From IMG/VR virus record IMGVR_UViG_2534681701_000009: DNA of 10,264 nucleotides. One strand, 5' to 3'. Position numbers and translations under genes: made by a program. Position 1 is the stretch's first letter. The number at the start of each line of letters is the position of its first letter. The notes below the pieces were generated by a model. That model saw nothing but the letters and a program-made list of their open reading frames with translations. It was not told the origin of the DNA and ran no database searches. The DNA comes from a virus. Lineage: Duplodnaviria; Heunggongvirae; Uroviricota; Caudoviricetes. Shown here piece by piece: positions 1 through 10,264 of the stretch.

Positions 1-1254
1 ATGCTGGAACAAATGGGCATTGCCGCGAAGCAAGCCTCGTATAAATTAGCGCAACTCTCCAGCCGCGAAAAAAATCGCGTGCTGGAAAAAATCGCCGATG
101 AACTGGAAGCACAAAGCGAAATCATCCTCAACGCTAACGCCCAGGATGTTGCTGACGCGCGAGCCAATGGCCTTAGCGAAGCGATGCTTGACCGTCTGGC
201 ACTGACGCCCGCACGGCTGAAAGGCATTGCCGACGATGTACGTCAGGTGTGCAACCTCGCCGATCCGGTGGGGCAGGTAATCGATGGCGGCGTACTGGAC
301 AGCGGCCTGCGTCTTGAGCGTCGTCGCGTACCGCTGGGGGTTATTGGCGTGATTTATGAAGCGCGCCCGAACGTGACGGTTGATGTCGCTTCGCTGTGCC
401 TGAAAACCGGTAATGCGGTGATCCTGCGCGGTGGCAAAGAAACGTGTCGCACTAACGCTGCAACGGTGGCGGTGATTCAGGACGCCCTGAAATCCTGCGG
501 CTTACCGGCGGGTGCCGTGCAGGCGATTGATAATCCTGACCGTGCGCTGGTCAGTGAAATGCTGCGTATGGATAAATACATCGACATGCTGATCCCGCGT
601 GGTGGCGCTGGTTTGCATAAACTGTGCCGTGAACAGTCGACAATCCCGGTGATCACAGGTGGTATAGGCGTATGCCATATTTACGTTGATGAAAGTGTAG
701 AGATCGCTGAAGCATTAAAAGTGATCGTCAACGCGAAAACTCAGCGTCCGAGCACATGTAATACGGTTGAAACGTTGCTGGTGAATAAAAACATCGCCGA
801 TAGCTTCCTGCCCGCATTAAGCAAACAAATGGCGGAAAGCGGCGTGACATTACACGCAGATGCAGCTGCACTGGCGCAGTTGCAGGCAGGCCCTGCGAAG
901 GTGGTTGCTGTTAAAGCCGAAGAGTATGACGATGAGTTTCTGTCATTAGATTTGAACGTCAAAATCGTCAGCGATCTTGACGATGCCATCGCCCATATTC
1001 GTGAACACGGCACACAACACTCCGATGCGATCCTGACCCGCGATATGCGCAACGCCCAGCGTTTTGTTAACGAAGTGGATTCGTCCGCTGTTTACGTTAA
1101 CGCCTCTACGCGTTTTACCGACGGCGGCCAGTTTGGTCTGGGTGCGGAAGTGGCGGTAAGCACACAAAAACTCCACGCGCGTGGCCCAATGGGGCTGGAA
1201 GCACTGACCACTTACAAGTGGATCGGCATTGGTGATTACACCATTCGTGCGTAA
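1..1254 (+). CDS. proA: gamma-glutamyl phosphate reductase (glutamate-5-semialdehyde dehydrogenase), complete, 417 aa
   Basis: Full-length ORF starting at window base 1 and ending in TAA; the translation matches the E. coli ProA sequence as I recall it; proA sits immediately upstream of thrW in E. coli. Confidence 0.95.
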
Positions 1255-1368
1255 ATAAAACCGGGTGATGCAAAAGTAGCCATTTGATTCACAAGGCCAT
1301 TGACGCATCGCCCGGTTAGTTTTAACCTTGTCCACCGTGATTCACGTTCGTGAACATGTCCTTTCAGG

Positions 1369-1444
1369 GCCGATATAGCTCAGTTGGTAGAGCAGCGCAT
1401 TCGTAATGCGAAGGTCGTAGGTTCGACTCCTATTATCGGCACCA
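1369..1444 (+). tRNA. thrW: tRNA-Thr (anticodon CGU), 76 nt with encoded CCA
   Basis: GCCGATATAGCTCAGTTGGTAGAGCAGCGCATTCGTAATGCGAAGGTCGTAGGTTCGACTCCTATTATCGGCACCA: cloverleaf-compatible acceptor/T-arm pairing, GTTCGA T-loop, anticodon loop TTCGTAA giving anticodon CGT; position after proA fits thrW. Confidence 0.9.
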
Positions 1445-1461
1445 TTCAAACATCTCCCCAA

Positions 1462-1482
1462 GTCTACTAAAGTCTTTCAAAA
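1462..1482. repeat. 21-bp direct repeat copy 1 (GTCTACTAAAGTCTTTCAAAA), candidate integrase arm-type site in attL
   Basis: Near-identical copy at 1525..1545 (2 mismatches), both between the tRNA 3' end and the integrase start. Confidence 0.45.
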
Positions 1483-1524
1483 CCCCTTATAATCCGCGTA
1501 TTAAAGCCCCGCTCGTCTTTTGAC

Positions 1525-1545
1525 GTCTACTAAAGTCCCTCAAAA
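1525..1545. repeat. 21-bp direct repeat copy 2 (GTCTACTAAAGTCCCTCAAAA), candidate integrase arm-type site in attL
   Basis: Matches 1462..1482 at 19 of 21 positions; followed by tandem ATGGGGGTA at 1557..1565 and 1569..1577. Confidence 0.45.
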
Positions 1546-1609
1546 TCTACGGTCAGATGGGGGTACTTATGGGGGTATTTGCTGTTCGGTTTAGTGGAGG
1601 TACCCCCAA

Positions 1610-2824
1610 GTGAAACTCAATGCCCGTCAAATAGACACAGCCAAGCCAAAAGAGAAGGCTTACAAGCTGGCCGATGGTGGCGGTTTGTATCTCTTGGTAA
1701 AACCTAATGGAGGTAAATACTGGCGACTTAAATATCGTGTAGCTGGTAAAGAGAAGCTATTGGCACTAGGTGTTTATCCTGAGGTTACTCTAGCCGATGC
1801 TCGGGCAAAACGTGAAGATGCGAAAAGAGGTATCGCTGGTGGTATCGATCCGATGGAAGCGAAACGAGAGGAAAAGATTGCCCGGGAAACGCAGTTAAAC
1901 AACACCTTCAAAGATATTGCCATTGAGTGGCACAGCAGCAAATTAAAAAAATGGTCTGCTGGTTATGCTTCAGACATCCTCGAAGCCTTCAACAAAGATG
2001 TGTTCCCTTACATTGGCAAAAAAACCATCGCCGAAATCAAACCACTTGAACTTCTGAATGTGCTGCGTCGCATCGAGGGGCGCGGTGCTACAGAAAAAGC
2101 CAAAAAAGTGAGGCAGCGGTGCGGGGAAGTTTTCCGCTATGCAATAGTCACTGGTCGCGCAGAGTATAACCCTGCACCAGACCTTACTAGCGCGATGCAA
2201 GGCCATGAATCTAATCATTACCCTTTCCTTACAGCCAAAGAATTACCTGATTTTTTCAAGGCATTGTCCAGTTACTCAGGAAGCGCATTGGTTGTTATGG
2301 CGGCTCGTCTACTGATTATCACCGGCTTGCGGACTGGCGAACTACGTGGCGCATTATGGGATGAAATTGATTTCAACAAGGCTATCTGGGAGATACCCGC
2401 TTCACGTATGAAAATGCGGCGGACTCATATTGTGCCATTGTCTGAGCAGGCTCTTTCGCTTATTGGGAAGATTAGAGAAATAACAGGCAATTACCCTCTT
2501 ATGTTTCCCGGGCGCAATGATCCAAGGAAAACAATGAGCGAGGCCAGCATAAACCAAGTGTTTAAGCGCATTGGCTACGCTGGACGTGTAACTGGTCATG
2601 GGTTCCGGCACACTATGAGTACGATTTTGCATGAGCAGGGCTATAACACCGCGTGGATAGAAACGCAGCTCGCTCACGTTGATAAGAACTCAATTCGTGG
2701 CACATACAACCATGCGCAATATCTGGATGGAAGGCGGGAGATGCTTCAATGGTATGCCGACTATATGGATTCTCTCGAGCATGGCGGAAATGTGGTGCAT
2801 ATGGTGTTTGAAAAACACGCATGA
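1610..2824 (+). CDS. int: P4-family tyrosine recombinase / integrase, 404 aa, GTG start
   Basis: ORF directly downstream of the tRNA; GGAGG 9 nt upstream of GTG; N-terminus KPKEKAYKLADGGGLYLLVKPNGGKYWRLKYR is typical of P4-type integrases; C-terminal HGFRHT ... RGTYNHAQY carries the recombinase His/Arg/Tyr catalytic motifs. Confidence 0.9.
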   Translation: MKLNARQIDTAKPKEKAYKLADGGGLYLLVKPNGGKYWRLKYRVAGKEKLLALGVYPEVTLADARAKREDAKRGIAGGIDPMEAKREEKIARETQLNNTFKDIAIEWHSSKLKKWSAGYASDILEAFNKDVFPYIGKKTIAEIKPLELLNVLRRIEGRGATEKAKKVRQRCGEVFRYAIVTGRAEYNPAPDLTSAMQGHESNHYPFLTAKELPDFFKALSSYSGSALVVMAARLLIITGLRTGELRGALWDEIDFNKAIWEIPASRMKMRRTHIVPLSEQALSLIGKIREITGNYPLMFPGRNDPRKTMSEASINQVFKRIGYAGRVTGHGFRHTMSTILHEQGYNTAWIETQLAHVDKNSIRGTYNHAQYLDGRREMLQWYADYMDSLEHGGNVVHMVFEKHA

Positions 2825-2967
2825 AACAACTGGACAAGTATACAGAGGTTTACTAAAGTATAGGGGAGTAGATTGATAAAAACTCACAGAGGATTGCTAT
2901 TTAACAGTTAGCCCTGGAGAAGGGCAATCGCTCTTTTATAAACGAAGGTGTATTGAGCCTTCTACGT

Positions 2968-3030
2968 CGCTGACAAAGCGGAATGTTCTTTAACAGGCTT
3001 TGGCGCTGACAAAGCGCAATTGTTCTTTAA
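2968..3030. repeat. two direct repeats of ~26 bp (CGCTGACAAAGCG-G/CAAT-TGTTCTTTAA) in the int-alpA intergenic region
   Basis: Copies at 2968..2993 and 3004..3030; each begins with a small CGCT...AGCG inverted motif; candidate regulator binding sites. Confidence 0.4.
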
Positions 3031-3134
3031 AACTACTGGATGTCACGCCTAATAGCGTGATCCTGCCGAAATGCAGGGTAGCTCTACCCTTGTGGAGCAA
3101 ACAAACCAAAACAATCTGACTATCTTTTATAAAA

Positions 3135-3163
3135 GACCGCAATATGTTTTTCATATTGTGGTC
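3135..3163. promoter_or_regulatory. 12-bp imperfect palindrome with 5-T spacer (GACCGCAATATG TTTTT CATATTGTGGTC), candidate operator or hairpin upstream of alpA
   Basis: 11 of 12 positions are self-complementary; lies ~90 bp upstream of the alpA ATG. Confidence 0.35.
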
Positions 3164-3268
3164 TTTGGCGTATTCGACATTTGACGCAAATAAAACTCTC
3201 GCCATTCGTTGCAGGAGGGAGTTATTGCGTCATTAGTACAGGATATTAATAAATGGCTAATTACAATT

Positions 3269-3277
3269 CATTAATTC
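3269..3277. repeat. IS1 target-site duplication, left copy (CATTAATTC)
   Basis: Identical 9-mer directly flanks the other IS1 end at 4046..4054; 9 bp is the usual IS1 duplication length. Confidence 0.9.
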
Positions 3278-3292
3278 GGTAATGACTCTAAC

Positions 3293-3796
3293 TTATTGAT
3301 AGTGTTTTATGTTCAGATAATGCCCGATGACTTTGTCATGCAGCTCCACCGATTTTGAGAACGACAGCGACTTCCGTCCCAGCCGTGCCAGGTGCTGCCT
3401 CAGATTCAGGTTATGCCGCTCAATTCGCTGCGTATATCGCTTGCTGATTACGTGCAGCTTTCCCTTCAGGCGGGATTCATACAGCGGCCAGCCATCCGTC
3501 ATCCATATCACCACGTCAAAGGGTGACAGCAGGCTCATAAGACGCCCCAGCGTCGCCATAGTGCGTTCACCGAATACGTGCGCAACAACCGTCTTCCGGA
3601 GCCTGTCATACGCGTAAAACAGCCAGCGCTGGCGCGATTTAGCCCCGACATAGCCCCACTGTTCGTCCATTTCCGCGCAGACGATGACGTCACTGCCCGG
3701 CTGTATGCGCGAGGTTACCGACTGCGGCCTGAGTTTTTTAAGTGACGTAAAATCGTGTTGAGGCCAACGCCCATAATGCGGGCTGTTGCCCGGCAT
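3293..3796 (-). CDS. insB: IS1 InsB reading frame (expressed as InsAB' fusion via -1 frameshift), 167 aa as listed
   Basis: Translation ...[96 protein letters not shown]... matches IS1 InsB; overlaps insA as in IS1. Confidence 0.9.
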
Positions 3797-3990
3797 CCAA
3801 CGCCATTCATGGCCATATCAATGATTTTCTGGTGCGTACCGGGTTGAGAAGCAGTGTAAGTGAACTGCAGTTGCCATGTTTTACGGCAGTGAGAGCAGAG
3901 ATAGCGCTGATGTCCGGCAGTGCTTTTGCCGTTACGCACCACCCCGTCAGTAGCTGAACAGGAGGGACAGCTGATAGAAACAGAAGCCAC
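3715..3990 (-). CDS. insA: IS1 InsA (transposition regulator / N-terminal part of InsAB' transposase), 91 aa
   Basis: Translation [43 protein letters not shown]... is the canonical IS1 InsA with its zinc-finger motif. Confidence 0.93.
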
Positions 3991-4045
3991 TGGAGCACCT
4001 CAAAAACACCATCATACACTAAATCAGTAAGTTGGCAGCATCACC

Positions 4046-4054
4046 CATTAATTC
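4046..4054. repeat. IS1 target-site duplication, right copy (CATTAATTC)
   Basis: Identical to 3269..3277. Confidence 0.9.
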
Positions 4055-4232
4055 GTCTCTCTGAAGTTCAAAGGCGAACTGGTTATAGCAAAGCATGGAT
4101 TTATCGTCTTATTAGTCAGGGGAGGTTCCCTAAACAGGTAAAAATTGGAAGTCGGGCAATTGCTTTTGTTGAGTCTGAAATAGATGAATGGATTGAGAAG
4201 TGTATATTAGAATCTAGAGACGAGGTGGCCTG

Positions 4233-4664
4233 ATGGAAAAGAAAAACCGCCCATTACAGGCGGCTAATTCAGATATTCGTGTATCTGATGTTACGCCCCT
4301 TACAAAATCCCTTCAAGCACCAAAGCGCACACCGAAAAAGCATCGTGCCAGAGTCTATATGCTGCGTACTGGTATAGAGGGATGGACAGAAAATGACATT
4401 CTTCGCTACTGCCGTCTGTCTTCTGGTCGTAACTATGCAACAGAGTTAGAACGCCAGCTTGGAATCACTCTGGAGCGTATCGACGAAAAGAATCCTGATG
4501 GTATCGGAACACACCTTCGCTACCGTTTCTCCTGCCGTGGTGATGTTCTGAAAGTGATCACTCATATTAACCATCTTGCGAACATAAATGATCACAACGG
4601 ACTTTCTCAGCAGGAAATTGCCGACATTCTGAAACTCTACCCGGACGCGTTTAACGCCGCCTAA
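4233..4664 (+). CDS. hypothetical protein, 143 aa, basic N-terminus; function unknown
   Basis: ATG overlaps the alpA stop (TGATG); ORF with protein-like composition; no family recognised by eye. Confidence 0.65.
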   Translation: MEKKNRPLQAANSDIRVSDVTPLTKSLQAPKRTPKKHRARVYMLRTGIEGWTENDILRYCRLSSGRNYATELERQLGITLERIDEKNPDGIGTHLRYRFSCRGDVLKVITHINHLANINDHNGLSQQEIADILKLYPDAFNAA

Positions 4665-4676
4665 CGGAGACTGAAA

Positions 4677-5510
4677 ATGAACATCGAAAAAAGCAGATTA
4701 ATTTCTGAGGCCGCCCCTCATCTGAACGCCTCTCTGGGCACAATTAACGGTAATGAATTTGCCGCAATTGTCCCGGTTATTCCTGGTCATATCGGTGGGC
4801 GTGAAACCAATATTGTTAGCGCAAAAGCGTTACACAAAGCGTTGGGCGTGGGAAAAGACTTCTCTACATGGATCACTGATCGCATCTCTGAATATGACTT
4901 CACCATTGGGCACGATTACTCAGTCCATAAAACAATTTCCCCAAATTTGGGGAAAAGCCCGAATGGCGCGGCTTACAGCAAGATAAAGCACTCTGGCAGA
5001 CCCGGCAAAGACTATCTGTTAAGTGTCGGAATGGCGAAAGAACTGGCAATGATCGAACGCAATGATCAGGGTCGCGCTATCCGCCGTTATTTCATCCAGT
5101 GCGAGGAAGAATTACAGCGTAGCGTGCCTGAAATCGCCGCCCGCTATCGTCGCCAGCTAAAAGCCCGTATCAGTGCCGCAAACAACTTTAAGCCAATGTG
5201 CGATGCGCTGAATATGGCCCGTGCCGAGATGGGTAAAACGACGCAGCAACACCACTACACAAACGAGAGCAATATGATTTCTCGTATCGTTCTTGGTGGG
5301 CTAACTGCTAAGCAGTGGGCGCGGATAAATGGCTATTCTGGCGAACCTCGCGACCATATGAACGCAGAACAGCTTGAGCACCTCTCATATCTCGAAAGCA
5401 CCAATATCACGTTAATTGATATGGGCATGGAATATGAGCAGCGCAAAGGAGAACTCACCCGCCTGTCGCAACGCTGGCTCGCTAAGCGTCTGGAGGCGGT
5501 CCATGTTTAA
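4677..5510 (+). CDS. phage antirepressor-like protein (AntA/Rha-type N-terminal region), 277 aa
   Basis: GGAG 8 nt upstream of ATG; motifs KDFSTWITDRISEYDF and LSVGMAKELAMIERNDQGRAIRRYFIQCEEEL resemble AntA/Rha-family antirepressor domains from memory. Confidence 0.7.
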   Translation: MNIEKSRLISEAAPHLNASLGTINGNEFAAIVPVIPGHIGGRETNIVSAKALHKALGVGKDFSTWITDRISEYDFTIGHDYSVHKTISPNLGKSPNGAAYSKIKHSGRPGKDYLLSVGMAKELAMIERNDQGRAIRRYFIQCEEELQRSVPEIAARYRRQLKARISAANNFKPMCDALNMARAEMGKTTQQHHYTNESNMISRIVLGGLTAKQWARINGYSGEPRDHMNAEQLEHLSYLESTNITLIDMGMEYEQRKGELTRLSQRWLAKRLEAVHV

Positions 5511-5685
5511 GCCGACAGGAACACCACAACCTCAAAAACGCTACAAAGATGCCCACGGAGCACTCGTTACTGTCGAAAGCGTGTCTCACAACCGAGTGAC
5601 GTTTTATCGCGACGGGTATCAATCGCCATGCGTACAACCGCTGGCGCGTTTCATGAAGGAGTTCGCGGAGGTTAACAAATGCTAA
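5503..5685 (+). CDS. small hypothetical protein, 60 aa (MFKPTGTPQ...)
   Basis: ATG embedded in the upstream stop (ATGTTTAA) suggests translational coupling; I prefer this start to the longer 5416 start in the ORF track, which overlaps the upstream gene by 95 nt. Confidence 0.5.
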   Translation: MFKPTGTPQPQKRYKDAHGALVTVESVSHNRVTFYRDGYQSPCVQPLARFMKEFAEVNKC

Positions 5686-6746
5686 CCGTCCAGAAGAAGA
5701 CATTTTCACTGGCTGGTATGTCGCCAAAATCCAGTAATATGACGGCAAAGTCAGGCATTAATACAGCAGATACAAGCAAAGTTTATCATTTGCTGGTGGT
5801 CGGAACGGATGCCTTAACCATATCAGAAATCTCGGGCGATGATATTAGCATTGAGAAGGTCAGCGGCTGCGCCAGAAAATTTCTGGTCGTAGATGATGTC
5901 TTCCGCTCGTGTAGTGACTCCACAAAAACATTCGTCCACGCGCGTGACGTTAACGAAATGAGCGCGATGTACTGTGCATCTGGTGCTTCCAATAGCGAGT
6001 TTTCGGAGTCCATAAAAAAGAGCTTGCCGTTATGCGGCAACACGGTTTATGGTTATAAGGCACCTCATAAAACGGGTGCCGGGATTGGCGTCCTGGTAAA
6101 TCGAATGGCGACATATGACGCGCCGAGCGTCTTTTTTTATGTCGTAGGTCTGACTCACCCATTTTTTGGGCGTTGGTGTATAATCCAGCGCCTTTGTCAA
6201 TCAATGGTGGCTCAGGCAGGGGCTTCTTCGGAAGCGCCGGTATCCATTCGAGCCGGTTACGCCAACCCTGTCTGGGCTACCACCAGCGAAATTGGCGTTT
6301 CCGGTGGTAGCGTTACATGCTATCGAATGGAGGCTGCCACATGCTGGCTACTACCCCTACCCAAAAACCGCAATTTATCTGGATTATCGCCGCAGTTCGC
6401 CGCGATTGCCCGACAATTACCGCCAAAATTCATCATATTGCTGCCGAGTCTGAACGCGATGCTCGCCGTTCTCTGGTGCGCGATCACGTCTGCTTTTTTG
6501 CTGGTCGTATCCGCATGGAGGTGGCTCATGATTAAAACCTACGATGTGCATATGGATCCCCTCGAACGCACAAGCCAGATCATCACACTGACAGAAGTGA
6601 TTAACGACATTCTGGTGAGCAACTCTCCCTCACGAGACGAAAGACTGAAGGCGTTACTCGCGATATTGGATCTCGCCGTTCGTGACGTTCATTTCCTGCT
6701 GGAAGGTGGCGAAATGCCAGGAAAAACGGGGGCAACCAATGAATAA
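5679..6746 (+). CDS. uncertain: 355-codon open frame; plausibly a real coupled gene at its 5' end (5679 to ~6116) but no in-frame stop before 6746
   Basis: ATG overlaps the upstream stop (ATGCTAA) with GAGG 7 nt upstream; frame stays open through a terminator-like hairpin, a promoter-like TATAAT, the structured region and the out-of-frame Icd-like ORF. Probably not one protein. Confidence 0.25.
6117..6138 (+). terminator. candidate rho-independent terminator (GACGC-GCCGA-GCGTC followed by T7)
   Basis: 5-bp GC-rich stem, 5-nt loop, immediately followed by TTTTTTT at 6132..6138; lies at the end of the alpA-to-orf60 coupled module. Confidence 0.4.
6150..6184 (+). promoter_or_regulatory. candidate sigma70 promoter, perfect -10 TATAAT at 6179..6184 with TG two bases upstream and an A/T-rich tract before it
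   Basis: GGTGTATAAT; no canonical -35 at 17-bp spacing, so assignment rests on the -10 and context (just downstream of the terminator, upstream of the structured region and icd-like gene). Confidence 0.4.
6199..6335 (+). ncRNA. candidate C4/CI-type antisense immunity RNA with flanking target sites (approximate bounds)
   Basis: 9-bp stem GCTACCACC (6276..6284) / GGTGGTAGC (6303..6311); TCCATTCGA (6243..6251) is complementary to TCGAATGGA (6323..6331), which overlaps the GGAGG ribosome-binding site of the icd-like ORF; a related ATCAATGGTGG motif sits upstream at 6199..6210. Confidence 0.4.
6341..6535 (+). CDS. Icd-like (host cell division inhibitor-like) small protein, 64 aa
   Basis: GGAGG 7 nt upstream of ATG; [22 protein letters not shown]... 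resembles Icd-like proteins of P1/P4-type immunity regions from memory; stop overlaps the next ATG. Confidence 0.55.
   Translation: MLATTPTQKPQFIWIIAAVRRDCPTITAKIHHIAAESERDARRSLVRDHVCFFAGRIRMEVAHD
6528..6746 (+). CDS. small hypothetical protein, 72 aa
   Basis: ATG overlaps the icd-like stop; first of a chain of coupled ORFs. Confidence 0.5.
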   Translation: MIKTYDVHMDPLERTSQIITLTEVINDILVSNSPSRDERLKALLAILDLAVRDVHFLLEGGEMPGKTGATNE

Positions 6747-6933
6747 CTCAATTAATACCCCTCGCCTTACGTCCGCACTTCAATTAATCGAGCAAGCAGC
6801 GGCTGTCCCGGTTGCTGTCAGTCTTTCGGCTGAAGAAATGGACGCTGCTGATGTCGTGGATGCGATTAAAGCGTGCTCATCTTTGGTTAACGATGCCCGT
6901 GACGAGCTGGTAATTCTTGGGGGTGAAAAATGA
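6739..6933 (+). CDS. small hypothetical protein, 64 aa ([10 protein letters not shown]...)
   Basis: Start embedded in upstream stop as ATGAATAA; preferred over the 6682 start in the ORF track. Confidence 0.5.
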   Translation: MNNSINTPRLTSALQLIEQAAAVPVAVSLSAEEMDAADVVDAIKACSSLVNDARDELVILGGEK

Positions 6934-7193
6934 ATATCAACTTAATTTATCGTCATCCGTGTGAGCTGGAAATTGAATCATTGCTGAGCCGTGAAGAGCC
7001 ATATCCAGACACATTCACTCTTGCAGATCGCACGACTGAACGGCTTACCAGAGCGCGCACAGGTCTGGTTCATGTGATGAATGAGATTCTTCCATCGGTG
7101 GGAGGGGAACAGGCGACAGTAATCACTAGCTGGCTACAAAAAGTTACCTCTCTGATAGATATCAGTTTAATCGATGCGGAGAGTGCGAAATGA
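6930..7193 (+). CDS. small hypothetical protein, 87 aa
   Basis: ATGA start/stop overlap with upstream ORF. Confidence 0.55.
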   Translation: MNINLIYRHPCELEIESLLSREEPYPDTFTLADRTTERLTRARTGLVHVMNEILPSVGGEQATVITSWLQKVTSLIDISLIDAESAK

Positions 7194-7411
7194 CCAACAT
7201 CCAGCTCATTGAAGCACAATGTCGCATCGAACAGGTTCAGACTGTTTTAGGGTTCTGGCTTGAAGGGGCCAGCCCCAGCAACAGAGACAAGTTAATGATT
7301 GGCGCGGTTATGTCACTGCTCAATGGCGTACCAGAAGCTATTCAGGAAGCGGACGAATTGTTGGGCAAATATGAGTTACAGAATCATTCAGGCGAGGCGA
7401 AACATGAATAA
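7190..7411 (+). CDS. small hypothetical protein, 73 aa
   Basis: ATGA start/stop overlap with upstream ORF. Confidence 0.55.
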   Translation: MTNIQLIEAQCRIEQVQTVLGFWLEGASPSNRDKLMIGAVMSLLNGVPEAIQEADELLGKYELQNHSGEAKHE

Positions 7412-8006
7412 TTTCTTAACTTTCCATGCAGAAGCAACGCCTGACGGCGTAAACATCATGTACCGCAGCAACGATGGCATGACAGAACGCGTTGAGACCG
7501 TCTCATATATTGATGCCGTAAATCGTCTGGATGCCGGGGATTATGACGATAAACCAGATGAAGGTATGTCAATACATCTCGCTATTGCCGATGGCGGCAA
7601 CCAGGGATATTTCGATTACACATCACAGCATAACGTCATTATGTGGAGATGGCTGATCGCAACAGTATTCATGCTGGAAATGAGAGAGGAAAACGGTACT
7701 GTCAGCATCATTGATGATACTGGCAATCCTTCCGAAGTGGCTGTTTATTCCAACGGCATCGTCGCCATGCCGCTGTATCCAGTAGCAGAGCGCCTCGCTA
7801 TGGCAAACAACATTGAGGGCGCGATGATAGAACGTTTTGGCATCGAGTCTGGCACAGAACGCGCCATCATTTTCTACAGAGCCATGATGGATGTGGAACA
7901 AGGAGCACTGACTCCATTTGGTCGTGAAACGCTTGCTGAACTTCACAACAGCTTTATAGCTGAACTGAATGAAAACGGCATGCCAGCGGAACCAGTGACG
8001 CACTGA
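7404..8006 (+). CDS. hypothetical protein, 200 aa (MNNFLTFHAEATPDG...)
   Basis: Start embedded in upstream stop as ATGAATAA, the same 8-nt junction as at 6739; preferred over the 7299 start, which would overlap the upstream ORF by 113 nt. Confidence 0.65.
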   Translation: MNNFLTFHAEATPDGVNIMYRSNDGMTERVETVSYIDAVNRLDAGDYDDKPDEGMSIHLAIADGGNQGYFDYTSQHNVIMWRWLIATVFMLEMREENGTVSIIDDTGNPSEVAVYSNGIVAMPLYPVAERLAMANNIEGAMIERFGIESGTERAIIFYRAMMDVEQGALTPFGRETLAELHNSFIAELNENGMPAEPVTH

Positions 8007-8016
8007 GGATGGAGCC

Positions 8017-8358
8017 ATGATTACTAAAAATTTCCGACTGAATGCGCTGGCAAATAAGTATGCGTCGGCACTGTATAACCACATTACCTCCACCAGCGGC
8101 GGGGACTATTTCATGGTTGATGCGGACGGCGAGGCCGTCCGTGTGGAAATCGTCAATGGAGTAAAAGGCGTTCGCAGCCTGATCGATAGCTACACACTGG
8201 CAGCCATGAAAGTGTTCTACCCGCAGTGGGAAACCGTGGGGATCGAGCTTCTTGAACGTTGCGTCACTAAGGACGGATTGACTGACGTCGGGCGTGAGAT
8301 ATGGCAAAGCATGGTTAATGACATGGGCGCAACTGTAGCGGGAGGTTCTCATGCGTGA
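8017..8358 (+). CDS. hypothetical protein, 113 aa
   Basis: GAGGATGGAG ribosome-binding site directly upstream of ATG; no family recognised. Confidence 0.65.
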   Translation: MITKNFRLNALANKYASALYNHITSTSGGDYFMVDADGEAVRVEIVNGVKGVRSLIDSYTLAAMKVFYPQWETVGIELLERCVTKDGLTDVGREIWQSMVNDMGATVAGGSHA

Positions 8359-8722
8359 AAATGCAGAAATGGCGCTTAGCTCCGCAATCGGAGAGCAGGT
8401 GGCAAAGATTGCTGGTGCTGTGTGGATTCATAACCTTCATTCTACTGGTGAAGAGAAAATGGTAATTCAGACGCCAGAGGGACGCACCATTACTACATCT
8501 CTGAAGCCGTCAGATGTTTGTGATCTGATTTGCGCATTCATGTACCCAGCAATGAGGACTGTCCACGGCGATAAGTGGAAACTTGCGACAACCGCTGAAT
8601 TTGATATGTGGCTAAACAATGATGGCATGCTGACTGATTACGGAATAACCAAGTGGCAGATGCTGGTTAGCCATATCGCAAACGCTATAGACCACGTGGG
8701 GTACGGTGATGCGAAACATTGA
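8351..8722 (+). CDS. hypothetical protein, 123 aa
   Basis: ATG overlaps upstream stop (ATGCGTGA); no family recognised. Confidence 0.65.
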   Translation: MRENAEMALSSAIGEQVAKIAGAVWIHNLHSTGEEKMVIQTPEGRTITTSLKPSDVCDLICAFMYPAMRTVHGDKWKLATTAEFDMWLNNDGMLTDYGITKWQMLVSHIANAIDHVGYGDAKH

Positions 8723-9336
8723 TCTTATCCGTCAGGTTATCAGTGCGTCTGAAAACAACTGGCCTCATGTGCTGGGCTGCCTGAACATAAATGTCCCTGA
8801 CTCTCCGCGCCGTCATGCTCCCTGCCCTGCATGTGGGGGCAAAGATCGATTCCGGTTCGATGACAACGGGCGCGGTAGCTTCATCTGTAATCAGTGCGGC
8901 GCTGGTGATGGGCTGGATTTAATTAAACGCGTAAATAACTGCGACACAACAGAGGCGGCGCTTCTTGCCGCTGATGTTCTGGGTATTGATTACCGGACAA
9001 CGGAAACACCAGAAGCCACCAGCCAGAAACGGGAACAACTGGAAACCGAGCGCCAGCGACGCGAACAGGAGCGCCTGAAAAGGGCAGAGAAGGACGAACA
9101 ACAAAGACGGGATACGTTTTCCCGTCAGTTTGATGACATGCGCAGAAAGGCTGTAAACGGCAAATCTGATTATCTGGTTGCGAAAGGGGTAGGTGATTTT
9201 ACATTCCCCGTGTTGCCCGATGGATCTCTGTTGCTGGCGCTGGTGGATAAATCCGGCGCAGTAACAGCAGCACAGACTATTACCTCACATGGTGAAAAAA
9301 GACTCCTGACAGGTTCAGCAAAGCGGGGGGCATATC
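8706..9336 (+). pseudogene. P4 alpha-type DNA primase, N-terminal ~210 codons only (zinc-binding domain and start of TOPRIM), truncated by IS186
   Basis: CPACGGKDRFRFDDNGRGSFICNQCGAGDGLDL is a primase zinc-ribbon motif; P4-type primase/helicases are ~700-800 aa, whereas this frame terminates a few codons inside IS186. Confidence 0.8.
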
Positions 9337-10264
9337 CATAAGCGCTAACTTAAGGGTTGTGGTATTACGCCTGATATGATTTAACGTGCCGATGAATTAC
9401 TCTCACGATAACTGGTCAGCAATTCTGGCCCATATTGGTAAGCCCGAAGAACTGGATACTTCGGCACGTAATGCCGGGGCTCTAACCCGCCGCCGCGAAA
9501 TTCGTGATGCTGCAACTCTGCTACGTCTGGGGCTGGCTTACGGCCCCGGGGGGATGTCATTACGTGAAGTCACTGCATGGGCTCAGCTCCATGACGTTGC
9601 AACATTATCTGACGTGGCTCTCCTGAAGCGGCTGCGGAATGCCGCCGACTGGTTTGGCATACTTGCCGCACAAACACTTGCTGTACGCGCCGCAGTTACG
9701 GGTTGTACAAGCGGAAAGAGATTGCGTCTTGTCGATGGAACAGCAATCAGTGCGCCCGGGGGCGGCAGCGCTGAATGGCGACTACATATGGGATATGATC
9801 CTCATACCTGTCAGTTCACTGATTTTGAGCTAACCGACAGCAGAGACGCTGAACGGCTGGACCGATTTGCGCAAACGGCAGACGAGATACGCATTGCTGA
9901 CCGGGGATTCGGTTCGCGTCCCGAATGTATCCGCTCACTTGCTTTTGGAGAAGCTGATTATATCGTCCGGGTTCACTGGCGAGGATTGCGCTGGTTAACT
10001 GCAGAAGGAATGCGCTTTGACATGATGGGTTTTCTGCGCGGGCTGGATTGCGGTAAGAACGGTGAAACCACTGTAATGATAGGCAATTCAGGTAATAAAA
10101 AAGCCGGAGCTCCCTTTCCGGCACGTCTCATTGCCGTATCACTTCCTCCCGAAAAAGCATTAATCAGTAAAACCCGACTGCTCAGCGAGAATCGTCGAAA
10201 AGGACGAGTAGTTCAGGCGGAAACGCTGGAAGCAGCGGGCCATGTGCTATTGCTAACATCATTA
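9337..10264 (+). mobile_element. IS186 (IS4 family), left end and first 928 bp; continues beyond window
   Basis: Begins CATAAGCGCTAACTTAAGGGTTG (IS186 terminal repeat as I recall it), inserted next to a GGGGGG run; contains the IS186 transposase N-terminus. Confidence 0.85.
9392..10264 (+). CDS. insL: IS186 transposase, N-terminal 291 codons; partial, open to the window end (not in the ORF track because no stop is reached)
   Basis: Translation MNYSHDNWSAILAHIGKPEELDTSARNAGALTRRREIRDAATLLRLGLAYGPGG... matches IS186 transposase from memory; frame is open for exactly 291 codons to base 10264. Confidence 0.85.
   Translation, partial: MNYSHDNWSAILAHIGKPEELDTSARNAGALTRRREIRDAATLLRLGLAYGPGGMSLREVTAWAQLHDVATLSDVALLKRLRNAADWFGILAAQTLAVRAAVTGCTSGKRLRLVDGTAISAPGGGSAEWRLHMGYDPHTCQFTDFELTDSRDAERLDRFAQTADEIRIADRGFGSRPECIRSLAFGEADYIVRVHWRGLRWLTAEGMRFDMMGFLRGLDCGKNGETTVMIGNSGNKKAGAPFPARLIAVSLPPEKALISKTRLLSENRRKGRVVQAETLEAAGHVLLLTSL

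What the first reader, a model, noticed from the sequence alone, without database searches (positions are those of the whole stretch)
1255..1368. proA-thrW spacer with imperfect long-range inverted repeat and possible thrW promoter
ACCGGGTGATGC (1261..1272) and GCATCGCCCGGT (1304..1315) are reverse-complementary at 11 of 12 positions, and a TTGACG -35-like hexamer sits at 1300..1305. This could contain the proBA terminator and thrW promoter, but signals are weak.
Basis: seen in the sequence. Interest (0 to 1): 0.2.

Follow-up and report, generated by a model that had tools for sequence, protein, structure and literature searches.

The report
proBA end hairpin overlapping thrW promoter
The 114-base gap between the E. 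coli proline gene proA and the threonine tRNA gene thrW holds a conserved RNA hairpin at the end of the proline messenger, with the tRNA gene's promoter built into it; this is an ordinary, compact arrangement of known signal types.

Summary
The window is E. coli proA (1..1254), a 114-nt spacer, thrW (1369..1444) and a P4-type integrase island. The spacer is identical to K-12 MG1655.

**Observation.** The inverted repeat is real, but both arms are one base off: 1260..1271 and 1305..1316. It extends to 13 bp, and the one mismatch is a G·U in RNA. TTGACG is at 1300..1305 as stated. Only 0.8% of shuffled spacers hold such a repeat.

**Hairpin.** In 58 distinct Enterobacteriaceae spacers the 10-bp core stem (1262..1271/1305..1314) keeps pairing through compensatory and + strand G·U changes. 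It survives where thrW is lost and decays where a separate terminator follows proA. It therefore belongs to the proBA mRNA 3' end. It looks like a terminator but is atypical, with a 33-nt structured loop and an interrupted U-tract, and published Term-seq lists no 3' end there.

**Promoter.** TTGACG is invariant and lies 17 nt before a conserved TAnnCT (TAACCT, 1323..1328), followed by a GC-rich discriminator. Published Eσ70 SELEX and EσS ChIP-seq place RNA polymerase here. I found no mapped start site.

**Leader.** The thrW leader has its own covarying hairpin (1336..1358).

**Verdict.** The elements are known kinds and interest is low.

The parts
1..1254 (+). proA (glutamate-5-semialdehyde dehydrogenase) coding sequence, stop TAA at 1252..1254; source of the transcript that carries the hairpin
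   Evidence: ORF list, Pfam Aldedh, RefSeq annotation of the 100% identical strain and of K-12.
1259..1271 (+). 5' arm of the long hairpin (conserved core 1262..1271; the outer 1259..1261 pair only in Escherichia-like sequences)
   Evidence: RNAalifold consensus and pair counts. Identity to E. coli is 0.95, against 0.48 at proA four-fold sites.
1272..1304 (+). 33-nt 'loop' with internal pairing (about 1275..1281 with 1295..1301) and apical loop UUUGAUUCACAA. As DNA it is the region upstream of, and including, the thrW -35.
   Evidence: MFE. Upper-stem counts are suggestive but the register slips. The upper stem is clear in the Citrobacter freundii complex. Identity to E. coli is 0.87.
1305..1317 (+). 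3' arm of the hairpin (core 1305..1314); the same bases form the first part of the thrW promoter spacer
1316..1323 (+). Interrupted U-rich tail UUAGUUUU after the stem, overlapping the start of the -10 region
   Evidence: Sequence. Tail census across species: 5-6 T of 10 in 30 of 58 sequences, 3-4 of 10 in the rest.
1300..1305 (+). thrW promoter -35 hexamer TTGACG
   Evidence: Invariant in 58 sequences. Named by Shimada et al. 2014. Decayed to TTAAGG where thrW is lost.
1323..1328 (+). thrW promoter -10 hexamer TAACCT, with a 17-nt spacer; T1, A2, C5 and T6 are invariant
   Evidence: Alignment invariants. Variants are TACTCT and TAAGCT. The only TTGAC-N17-19-TANNNT match in the window. Shimada's in silico choice, TTTAAC at 1321..1326 with a 15-nt spacer, loses its A at position 2 in other genera.
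1329..1337 (+). GC-rich discriminator (TGTCCACC) and predicted start G1337 (K-12 262839); inferred, not mapped
   Evidence: Conserved C-x-C-C-G. Analogy with the spacing of rrnB P1, from my own knowledge. The RNA length used by Chhakchhuak & Sen implies an assumed start near 1340/1341.
1336..1358 (+). Conserved stem-loop in the thrW 5' leader (CGUG-A-UUCAC GUUC GUGAA CAUG)
   Evidence: Fold. Covariance-model alignment A4: 93% of cells paired, 6 of 9 pairs with compensatory changes, 0 of 500 shuffles reach the score.
1369..1444 (+). thrW, tRNA-Thr(CGU)
   Evidence: ARAGORN; Rfam tRNA 71.8 bits.

Best explanation
The spacer holds two overlapping signals that act at different levels, followed by a structured tRNA leader.

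1. **RNA level.** Transcripts that run out of proA fold into a long two-tier hairpin: a 10-13 bp GC-rich lower stem at 1259..1271/1305..1317, an imperfect upper stem, and an apical loop. An A-rich run precedes it and UUAGUUUU follows. I take this to be the 3'-end element of the proBA mRNA. It would act as an atypical, probably partial, intrinsic terminator and as a barrier to 3' exonucleases. It would also limit read-through into thrW.
2. **DNA level.** The same bases carry the thrW promoter. The -35 TTGACG (1300..1305) sits at the junction of loop and 3' arm. The 3' arm is the promoter spacer. The -10 TAACCT (1323..1328) overlaps the U-tract. A GC-rich discriminator follows, with a start predicted at about G1337.
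3. **Leader.** The roughly 32-nt thrW leader begins with its own conserved stem-loop (1336..1358). A single-stranded stretch of about 10 nt then leads to the RNase P site at 1368/1369.

**Shown:** the hairpins are under selection for pairing on the + strand, the promoter hexamers are invariant, and RNA polymerase binds here according to the literature.

**Inferred:** termination or stabilisation activity, the exact start site, and the role of the leader hairpin.
For: **The repeat is non-random.** 0.8% of shuffles hold one and the fold z-score is -4.4.

**Comparative data.** 80 proA loci were collected and 67 have thrW adjacent.
- The RNAalifold consensus is the 10-bp stem.
- 87% of cells are paired, against 29-45% when the partners are slid. 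The covariation score is reached by 0 of 500 shuffles.
- The bottom pair is CG 36, GC 5, AU 4, UA 1.
- One-sided changes give G·U on the + strand in 26 cells and A·C in 3.

**Natural experiments.**
- In the Citrobacter freundii complex thrW is gone and the -35 has decayed to TTAAGG. The hairpin is kept with compensatory and G·U changes (about -30 to -33 kcal/mol).
- Kosakonia arachidis has an extra canonical terminator after proA. Its 5' arm has decayed while the promoter block is intact.
- Atlantibacter has no adjacent thrW. It ends proA with GGGCGATGC-TCAG-GCATCGCCC-TTTTTTT, the same arms around a 4-nt loop with a full U-tract.

**Constraint.** Identity to E. coli is 1.00 at the -35, 0.95 in the 5' arm, 0.94 at the -10 and 0.87 in the loop, against 0.48 at proA four-fold sites.

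**Literature.** Eσ70 genomic SELEX binds in this spacer. An EσS ChIP-seq peak lies over the -10, leader and thrW.

**Leader hairpin.** Covariation.
Against: - No published 3' end was found at the hairpin. The Adams 2021 Term-seq list has none for proA in three conditions. This is weak evidence, because only about 1000 dominant ends are listed per condition.
- The 33-nt loop is far outside the usual 3-8 nt of intrinsic terminators, and the terminator scan did not call it.
- The U-tract is interrupted, and only 3-4 T of 10 remain in the Enterobacter clade although the stem is kept there.
- The -10 matches the consensus at only 3 of 6 positions, and the promoter scan did not call it.
- The TTGAC-N-TANNNT pattern alone is expected 0.76 times per window by chance.
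- I could retrieve no mapped start site. Peano et al. list none for thrW.
- Most stem pairs never vary, so covariation rests on a few pairs and on lineages that are not independent.
Confidence: 0.7

Rival explanations
1. The hairpin does not terminate transcription. proBA and thrW are co-transcribed as well as thrW having its own promoter. RNase P cuts at 1368/1369, and the hairpins then only stop 3' exonucleases and define a stable proBA 3' end. Transcription ends further downstream, dependent on Rho.
For: - The loop is large, and the U-tract is poor in Enterobacter species that still keep the stem.
- No Term-seq 3' end is listed in the spacer.
- No intrinsic terminator follows thrW.
- RT-qPCR with an amplicon running from the thrW anticodon arm to 154 nt downstream rises strongly in a rho mutant of K-12.
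Against: - E. coli has the A-tract / stem / U-tract symmetry typical of terminators.
- Atlantibacter has the same arms as a textbook terminator.
- Every other proA locus examined has a hairpin, often canonical, directly after the stop codon.
- No direct evidence for a proBA-thrW co-transcript was found.
Confidence: 0.2
2. The inverted repeat is a DNA-level feature of the thrW promoter: two half-sites for a regulator, or Fis/UP-type upstream activation. It is not an RNA element.
For: - The 5' arm and loop (about -75 to -36 from the predicted start) are conserved at the level of primary sequence (0.95 and 0.87), more than pairing alone requires.
- thrW is grouped with Fis-activated stable-RNA operons in RegulonDB-derived networks.
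- In Kosakonia arachidis the loop block is conserved although the hairpin is broken.
Against: - Compensatory changes use four different pair types, and there is a strong excess of + strand G·U over A·C.
- The pairing persists after thrW and its -35 are lost.
- By eye I found no good match to the 15-bp Fis motif or to the UP-element consensus. This was an inspection, not a formal test.
- This rival can be true in addition to the RNA hairpin, as a dual constraint, rather than instead of it.
Confidence: 0.07
3. The hairpin acts mainly on the - strand, or in both directions. It would stop antisense transcription that comes out of the variable islands integrated at thrW before it enters proA.
For: - The - strand RNA folds equally well (-29.0 kcal/mol, z = -4.4).
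- It is followed by a better U-tract (GGUUUUAUUUA); 4-9 T of 10 across species.
Against: - The U·G pair of E. coli and 14 other sequences becomes a C·A mismatch on the - strand.
- One-sided changes favour + strand pairing, 26 cells to 3.
- The - strand U-richness is partly forced by the TAA stop codon and the A-rich run.
- thrW lies between the islands and the hairpin.
Confidence: 0.03

Closest known systems
Intrinsic (Rho-independent) terminators of enterobacterial operons, for example the proA terminator of Atlantibacter (L080) or Raoultella planticola (L075)
   Same: It lies directly after the stop codon. It has a GC-rich stem with an A-rich run upstream and a U-rich run downstream. The stem arms (GGGYGATGC / GCATCRCCC) are the same as in the canonical Atlantibacter terminator.
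   Different: The loop is 33 nt with internal pairing, not 3-8 nt. The U-tract is interrupted (UUAGUUUU). No mapped 3' end was found. The hairpin contains a promoter.
Stable-RNA (rRNA/tRNA) sigma-70 promoters such as rrnB P1 or tyrT
   Same: It drives a tRNA gene. The -35 is near consensus. The discriminator is GC-rich and ends in CCACC before the predicted start. RNA polymerase holoenzyme binds without added factors.
   Different: The -10 is weak (TAACCT, 3 of 6) and the spacer is 17 nt rather than 16. No clear UP element or Fis site was seen. The conserved C(-8)/T(-7)/T(-6), and C(-13) in Enterobacter, resemble sigma-S-preferred -10 regions, in line with the EσS ChIP peak.
tRNA genes placed directly behind protein-coding genes, such as secG-leuU in E. 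coli
   Same: A single tRNA gene lies within about 100 nt of the end of an upstream, co-oriented coding gene.
   Different: secG-leuU is described as one transcript ending in a terminator after the tRNA (title and abstract of PMC2241853). Here the tRNA has its own promoter, there is a hairpin between the genes, and no intrinsic terminator follows the tRNA.
3'-terminal stabilising hairpins of mRNAs (REP-type or terminator-type exonuclease barriers)
   Same: It is a stable stem-loop at the 3' end of an mRNA, conserved for pairing rather than for sequence at the variable pairs.
   Different: It is single-copy. The query has a median of 1 place per E. coli genome, so it is not a repeated REP/BIME element.

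Membership tests
Intrinsic (Rho-independent) terminator | Stable GC-rich RNA hairpin just downstream of the stop codon on the sense strand | tested here: met
   The stem 1259..1271/1305..1317 starts 5 nt after the stop. Fold energy -29.8 kcal/mol, z = -4.4. Pairing is conserved with covariation.
Intrinsic (Rho-independent) terminator | Short loop (typically 3-8 nt), so that the hairpin closes quickly behind the polymerase | tested here: not met
   There are 33 nt between the arms, partly self-paired. The scan with a 3-8 nt loop limit did not call it.
Intrinsic (Rho-independent) terminator | Run of U (at least 5 of 8) immediately after the stem | tested here: inconclusive
   E. coli has UUAGUUUU after G1315 (6 of 8, interrupted). 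30 of 58 sequences have 5-6 T of 10, and the Enterobacter clade has only 3-4.
Intrinsic (Rho-independent) terminator | Transcript 3' ends mapped at the U-tract, or termination shown in vitro | tested here: not met
   The curated Term-seq list of Adams et al. 2021 has no 3' end for proA or in the spacer in three conditions. The list is short, about 1000 ends per condition. Other data sets were not retrievable. No in vitro data were found.
Sigma-70 promoter | -35 and -10 hexamers at 16-18 nt spacing | tested here: met
   TTGACG (5 of 6), 17 nt, TAACCT (3 of 6, with the key A at position 2 and T at position 6). It is the only such match in the window. The hexamer positions are invariant across genera. 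It fails the stricter scan, which needs at least 4 of 6 in each hexamer.
Sigma-70 promoter | RNA polymerase holoenzyme binds the site | tested here: met
   Literature only. Genomic SELEX with RpoD holoenzyme in the proA>thrW spacer (PMC3946193). EσS ChIP-seq peak at thrW (PMC4447067).
Sigma-70 promoter | Mapped transcription start at the expected distance from the -10 | tested here: inconclusive
   No start site for thrW was found in the TSS supplements I could search. Peano et al. list no validated TSS. An RNA length in PMC9160355 implies an assumed start near 1340/1341. Prediction from spacing gives G1337.
Stringently controlled / Fis-activated stable-RNA promoter | GC-rich discriminator between the -10 and the start | tested here: met
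   TGTCCACC in E. coli, TTTGCCCC or TCTACCCC elsewhere; C1335 is invariant, C1333, C1336 and G1337 are conserved in at least 90% of sequences.
Stringently controlled / Fis-activated stable-RNA promoter | Fis sites and/or an UP element upstream of the -35 | tested here: inconclusive
   The region -36 to -75 is strongly conserved. Visual comparison with the Fis and UP consensus gave only half matches. thrW is listed in a Fis module of a RegulonDB-derived network. No binding data were retrieved.
Known RNA families (Rfam 15) | Covariance-model match to a curated family | tested here: not met
   Only tRNA reaches threshold in 1000..1800. Nothing matches the spacer hairpins, even at E up to 10.

The most novel reading that the evidence does not exclude
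The nesting of the thrW promoter inside the proBA 3' hairpin may be a functional coupling kept across Enterobacteriaceae, not just compaction. Polymerase occupancy of the thrW promoter and read-through from proBA might modulate each other, through a roadblock at the U-tract/-10 overlap or through promoter occlusion relieved by the hairpin. Alternatively, the long conserved hairpin with its conserved apical loop (UUUGAUUC) could be a binding platform for a 3'-UTR-binding protein or the body of a 3'-UTR-derived RNA. The covarying leader hairpin that starts at the predicted +1 would then be a second, undescribed control or stability element of a minor tRNA.
Probability: 0.1. Interest if true: 0.45.

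Novelty: new member of a known kind. Interest (0 to 1): 0.2.

Why it matters
The value is mostly for annotation. The analysis fixes the coordinates of the proBA 3' hairpin. It corrects the likely -10 of the thrW promoter to TAACCT with a 17-nt spacer, where the published in silico choice is TTTAAC with 15 nt. It also adds a conserved leader hairpin.

The locus is a clear small example of one stretch of DNA under two constraints, RNA pairing for the upstream operon and promoter sequence for the downstream tRNA. The two constraints separate cleanly in lineages that lost one partner. That explains why a 'non-coding spacer' is far more conserved (0.87-1.00 identity) than synonymous sites next door (0.48).

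thrW is a hotspot for island integration, so knowing which flanking signals are host-owned is useful. None of this would surprise a specialist.

Tried and rejected
**Published end-mapping data.**
- Adams 2021 Term-seq lists only the mature thrW 3' end.
- No supplements are held for Conway 2014 or Dar & Sorek 2018.
- Thomason 2015 is not held.
- The stored part of the Ettwiller 2016 Cappable-seq file does not cover the locus.
- Yan 2018 mentions neither gene.
- Kim 2012 lists no TSS here.
- 'thrWp' occurs in no paper.
- Kristofich 2018 on proBA says nothing about the 3' end.

**The 'strong Rho-dependent terminator upstream of thrW' (PMC9160355).** Mapping the primers showed that the amplicon runs from inside thrW to 154 nt downstream in K-12. 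It therefore concerns termination after thrW, not the spacer.

**Other checks that led nowhere.**
- Rfam: no family matches the spacer.
- Repeated element (REP-like): rejected, because the sequence is single-copy in E. coli genomes.
- The direct 8-mer TGATTCAC (1285 and 1338), as a possible alternative pairing between the big loop and the leader hairpin: rejected, because the pair is not conserved in other genera.
- Upper-stem covariation at 1280/1297 (CG 21, GC 15, unpaired 21): the pairing register slips between lineages, so I treat it as suggestive only.
- The leader hairpin in E. coli alone is not significant by energy (z = -0.45). Only the comparative data support it.
- A cruciform at the DNA level was considered and set aside, because a 33-nt loop and an imperfect stem make extrusion unlikely. 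This is an inference and was not tested.

Full report
**What the window is.** ARAGORN finds one tRNA, tRNA-Thr(CGU), at 1369..1444. The ORF at 1..1254 is proA. The window matches E. coli strain E2863 at 100% over the 301 bases compared (1150..1450), where the order is proB, proA, tRNA-Thr, then a tyrosine recombinase island. The spacer 1255..1368 is identical to K-12 MG1655 262757..262870, so window position + 261502 gives the K-12 position. The two sequences diverge only after the tRNA, at the island junction.

**Check of the observation.** The two 12-mers exist, but each is one base away from the stated coordinates. ACCGGGTGATGC is at 1260..1271 and GCATCGCCCGGT is at 1305..1316. TTGACG is at 1300..1305 as stated. 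The single mismatch (T1266/G1310) is a G·U pair in + strand RNA, and pairing extends to 13 bp (1259..1271/1305..1317).

Chance is an unlikely explanation. Only 40 of 5000 dinucleotide-shuffled spacers contain a repeat of this quality, and the whole window has one other, at 3132..3166. RNA 1250..1330 folds at -29.8 kcal/mol with z = -4.4. The 33-nt 'loop' partly pairs with itself. Simple consensus scans call neither a promoter nor a terminator in the spacer, and Rfam has no family for it.

**Comparative data.** A scan of one genome per species with ProA returned 80 enterobacterial loci. In 67 of them thrW directly follows proA, with a spacer of 92-117 nt (253 nt in two Kosakonia-type loci). There are 58 distinct spacers, counting the window's.

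Against the 55 other distinct spacers compared (Escherichia species included), identity to E. coli at proA four-fold degenerate sites averages 0.48. In the spacer the figures are:

| Region | Identity to E. coli |
|---|---|
| -35 | 1.00 |
| 5' arm | 0.95 |
| -10 | 0.94 |
| loop | 0.87 |
| rest of the 3' arm | 0.86 |
| tail | 0.82 |
| discriminator and leader | about 0.7 |

The spacer is therefore under strong selection.

**The hairpin is an RNA element of the + strand.**
- RNAalifold returns the 10-bp stem 1262..1271/1305..1314 as the only consensus structure.
- For the 13-bp stem plus a 3-bp upper stem, 87% of cells are standard pairs, against 29-45% when the partners are slid by 1-3 columns. 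No shuffle out of 500 reaches the observed covariation score.
- The bottom pair occurs as CG (36), GC (5), AU (4) and UA (1). Three further pairs each show one compensatory double change.
- One-sided changes give G·U on the + strand in 26 cells and A·C in only 3. This argues for pairing in + strand RNA, and against the - strand or a protein-bound DNA palindrome.
- Because the thrW start lies downstream, this RNA can only come from transcription leaving proA.
- The outer three pairs (1259..1261) are confined to Escherichia-like sequences.
- The upper stem is suggestive, but its register slips between lineages.

**Natural experiments separate the two functions.**
1. In the Citrobacter freundii complex (L014, L042, L081) no tRNA follows proA, and the -35 has become TTAAGG. 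The hairpin is retained and is even more regular: a 10-11 bp lower stem plus a 6-9 bp upper stem, with compensatory and G·U changes, at -30 to -33 kcal/mol.
2. In Kosakonia arachidis (L066; the related locus L069 has the same spacer sequence) a canonical terminator and about 140 nt have been inserted right after proA. The old 5' arm has decayed, while the block GCAAAAGTAGCCGTTTGATTCCCAAGGGCATTGACGCATCAC and the -10 are intact.
3. In Atlantibacter (L080), which has no adjacent thrW, proA ends with GGGCGATGC-TCAG-GCATCGCCC-TTTTTTT. These are the same arms around a 4-nt loop, followed by a perfect U-tract.

Every other proA locus without thrW also has a strong hairpin just after the stop codon. 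Pairing therefore belongs to proBA, and the primary sequence of the loop and hexamers belongs to thrW. Each of these cases is a single lineage, so they are few in number, but they point the same way.

**Is it a terminator?** In E. coli the layout is terminator-like: an A-rich run, a GC-rich stem, then UUAGUUUU.

Several points count against a standard terminator:
- The loop is far larger than usual.
- The U-tract is interrupted, and in the Enterobacter clade only 3-4 of the 10 bases after the stem are T although the stem is kept.
- The curated Term-seq list of Adams et al. 2021 has no 3' end for proA or in the spacer in LB at OD 0.4, LB at OD 2.0 or M63. It lists only the mature thrW 3' end at 262946. 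That list holds about 900-1200 dominant ends per condition, so the absence is weak evidence.

My conclusion is that the hairpin is the proBA 3'-end element. Whether it terminates, stabilises, or does both is inferred and not shown.

The - strand RNA folds equally well and has the better U-tract. Bidirectional action cannot be excluded, but the wobble pattern favours the + strand.

**The thrW promoter.** TTGACG is invariant. Seventeen bases downstream lies TAACCT (1323..1328). Its T1, A2, C5 and T6 are invariant, and the variants seen are TACTCT and TAAGCT. Shimada et al. 2014 found RpoD holoenzyme binding in the proA>thrW spacer by genomic SELEX. By in silico search they assigned TTGACG-15-TTTAAC. 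In other genera their -10 becomes TCTAAC or TCTACT and loses the critical A at position 2, so I prefer the 17-nt spacing.

Downstream of the -10 comes a GC-rich discriminator (TGTCCACC; TTTGCCCC elsewhere) with a conserved CCG. By analogy with stable-RNA promoters (from my own knowledge) I predict a start at G1337, which is K-12 262839.

Peano et al. 2015 report an EσS ChIP-seq peak at 262040-262202 in the older K-12 numbering. That corresponds to window ~1314..1476. They list no validated TSS. The conserved C(-8), T(-7) and T(-6), and C(-13) in Enterobacter, fit their σS-type -10 description.

I found no mapped start site in the data sets I could reach. The RNA length of 258 nt used by Chhakchhuak & Sen, combined with their reverse primer, implies an assumed start near window 1340/1341. 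On its own the hexamer pattern is not statistically remarkable, with 0.76 expected per window. Position, invariance and the binding data carry the case.

**Overlap of the two signals.** The -35 lies at the junction of the loop and the 3' arm. G1305 pairs with C1271. The 3' arm is the first part of the promoter spacer. The U-rich tail runs into the -10. This dual use explains the unusual sequence conservation of a hairpin.

**The leader.** From about 1336 to 1358 the leader forms CGUG-A-UUCAC/GUUC/GUGAA-CAUG. In E. coli alone this is not significant (z = -0.45). Nearly all genera have a hairpin there with different sequences, for example GGUUAC/GUAACC and AAGCACA/UGUGUUU.

I built a covariance model from 13 sequences and used it to realign 58 loci:
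- 93% of cells are paired.
- 6 of 9 pairs show compensatory changes.
- 0 of 500 shuffles reach the score.
- Slid controls give 24-50% paired.

The alignment was fitted to the model, which favours the structure somewhat. The hairpin begins at the predicted +1 and is followed by about 10 unpaired bases before the RNase P site. Its role is not known; candidates are a 5'-end stability element, a folding insulator for the pre-tRNA, or a second exonuclease barrier for read-through RNA.

**A literature point cleared up.** The 'strong Rho-dependent terminator upstream of thrW' in PMC9160355 was measured with an amplicon that runs from the thrW anticodon arm to 154 nt downstream of thrW in K-12. It therefore reports Rho-dependent termination after thrW, in the CP4-6 prophage, and not in this spacer.

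**Comparison with known kinds and verdict.** The elements are an intrinsic-terminator-like 3' hairpin, a σ70 (possibly also σS) tRNA promoter, and a structured tRNA leader. All are known kinds. The promoter has been reported. I found no description of the hairpin, its overlap with the promoter, or the leader hairpin, but they are unsurprising. In four sampled E. coli genomes with variants near the spacer, none falls in the hairpin arms.

Interest is low.

Noticed in passing
window 1336..1358: A conserved stem-loop in the thrW 5' leader starts at the predicted transcription start. Different genera keep the hairpin with different sequences. In a model-fitted alignment, 93% of cells are paired and 6 of 9 pairs show compensatory changes. 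Its function is unknown.
   Followed up: partly
window 1462..1482 and 1525..1545; 1557..1580; 1553..1566 with 1600..1613: Between thrW and the P4-type integrase gene (1610..2824) there are three repeat features: a 21-nt direct repeat GTCTACTAAAGTCYYTCAAAA (90% identical, 63 nt apart), a tandem ATGGGGGTAYTT, and a 14-nt inverted repeat that reaches the integrase start codon. They look like arm-type recombinase or regulator sites of the island.
   Followed up: no
window ~1445..10264: The island at thrW differs from K-12's CP4-6 from the first bases after the tRNA. Its first 1456 bases (1445..2900: attachment-side repeats and the integrase gene) match 1039 of 5426 complete E. coli genomes, 503 of them over at least 80% of that length. 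In the matching strain the island carries DUF6387, an HTH regulator, AntA/AntB, antirestriction, JAB and CbtA/YeeU-type toxin-antitoxin genes.
   Followed up: partly
window 3132..3166: This is the only other long inverted repeat in the window: AAAGACCGCAATATG-TTTTTC-CATATTGTGGTCTTT, with one mismatch. It is flanked by A and T runs and looks like a possibly bidirectional terminator inside the island.
   Followed up: no
L014, L042, L081 (Citrobacter freundii complex), about 2452..2560: thrW and its leader are deleted just after the conserved CCCCG of the discriminator. This leaves a promoter relic (TTAAGG ... TACTCT/TAACCT) and an improved hairpin. It looks like the scar of an imprecise loss at the thrW integration hotspot.
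   Followed up: partly
L066, L069 (Kosakonia arachidis and a related MAG), about 2455..2600: An insertion of about 140 nt lies between proA and the thrW promoter block. It starts with a perfect canonical terminator, AAAACGGGCGGTACATC...GATGTACCGCCCGTTT. A near-identical hairpin follows proA in L026, which lacks thrW. It may be a mobile or recombined terminator module.
   Followed up: no
window 1285..1292 and 1338..1345: The 8-mer TGATTCAC occurs twice, 53 nt apart. One copy is in the apical loop of the large hairpin and the other in the 5' arm of the leader hairpin. The pair is not conserved in other genera, so I took it as coincidence.
   Followed up: yes
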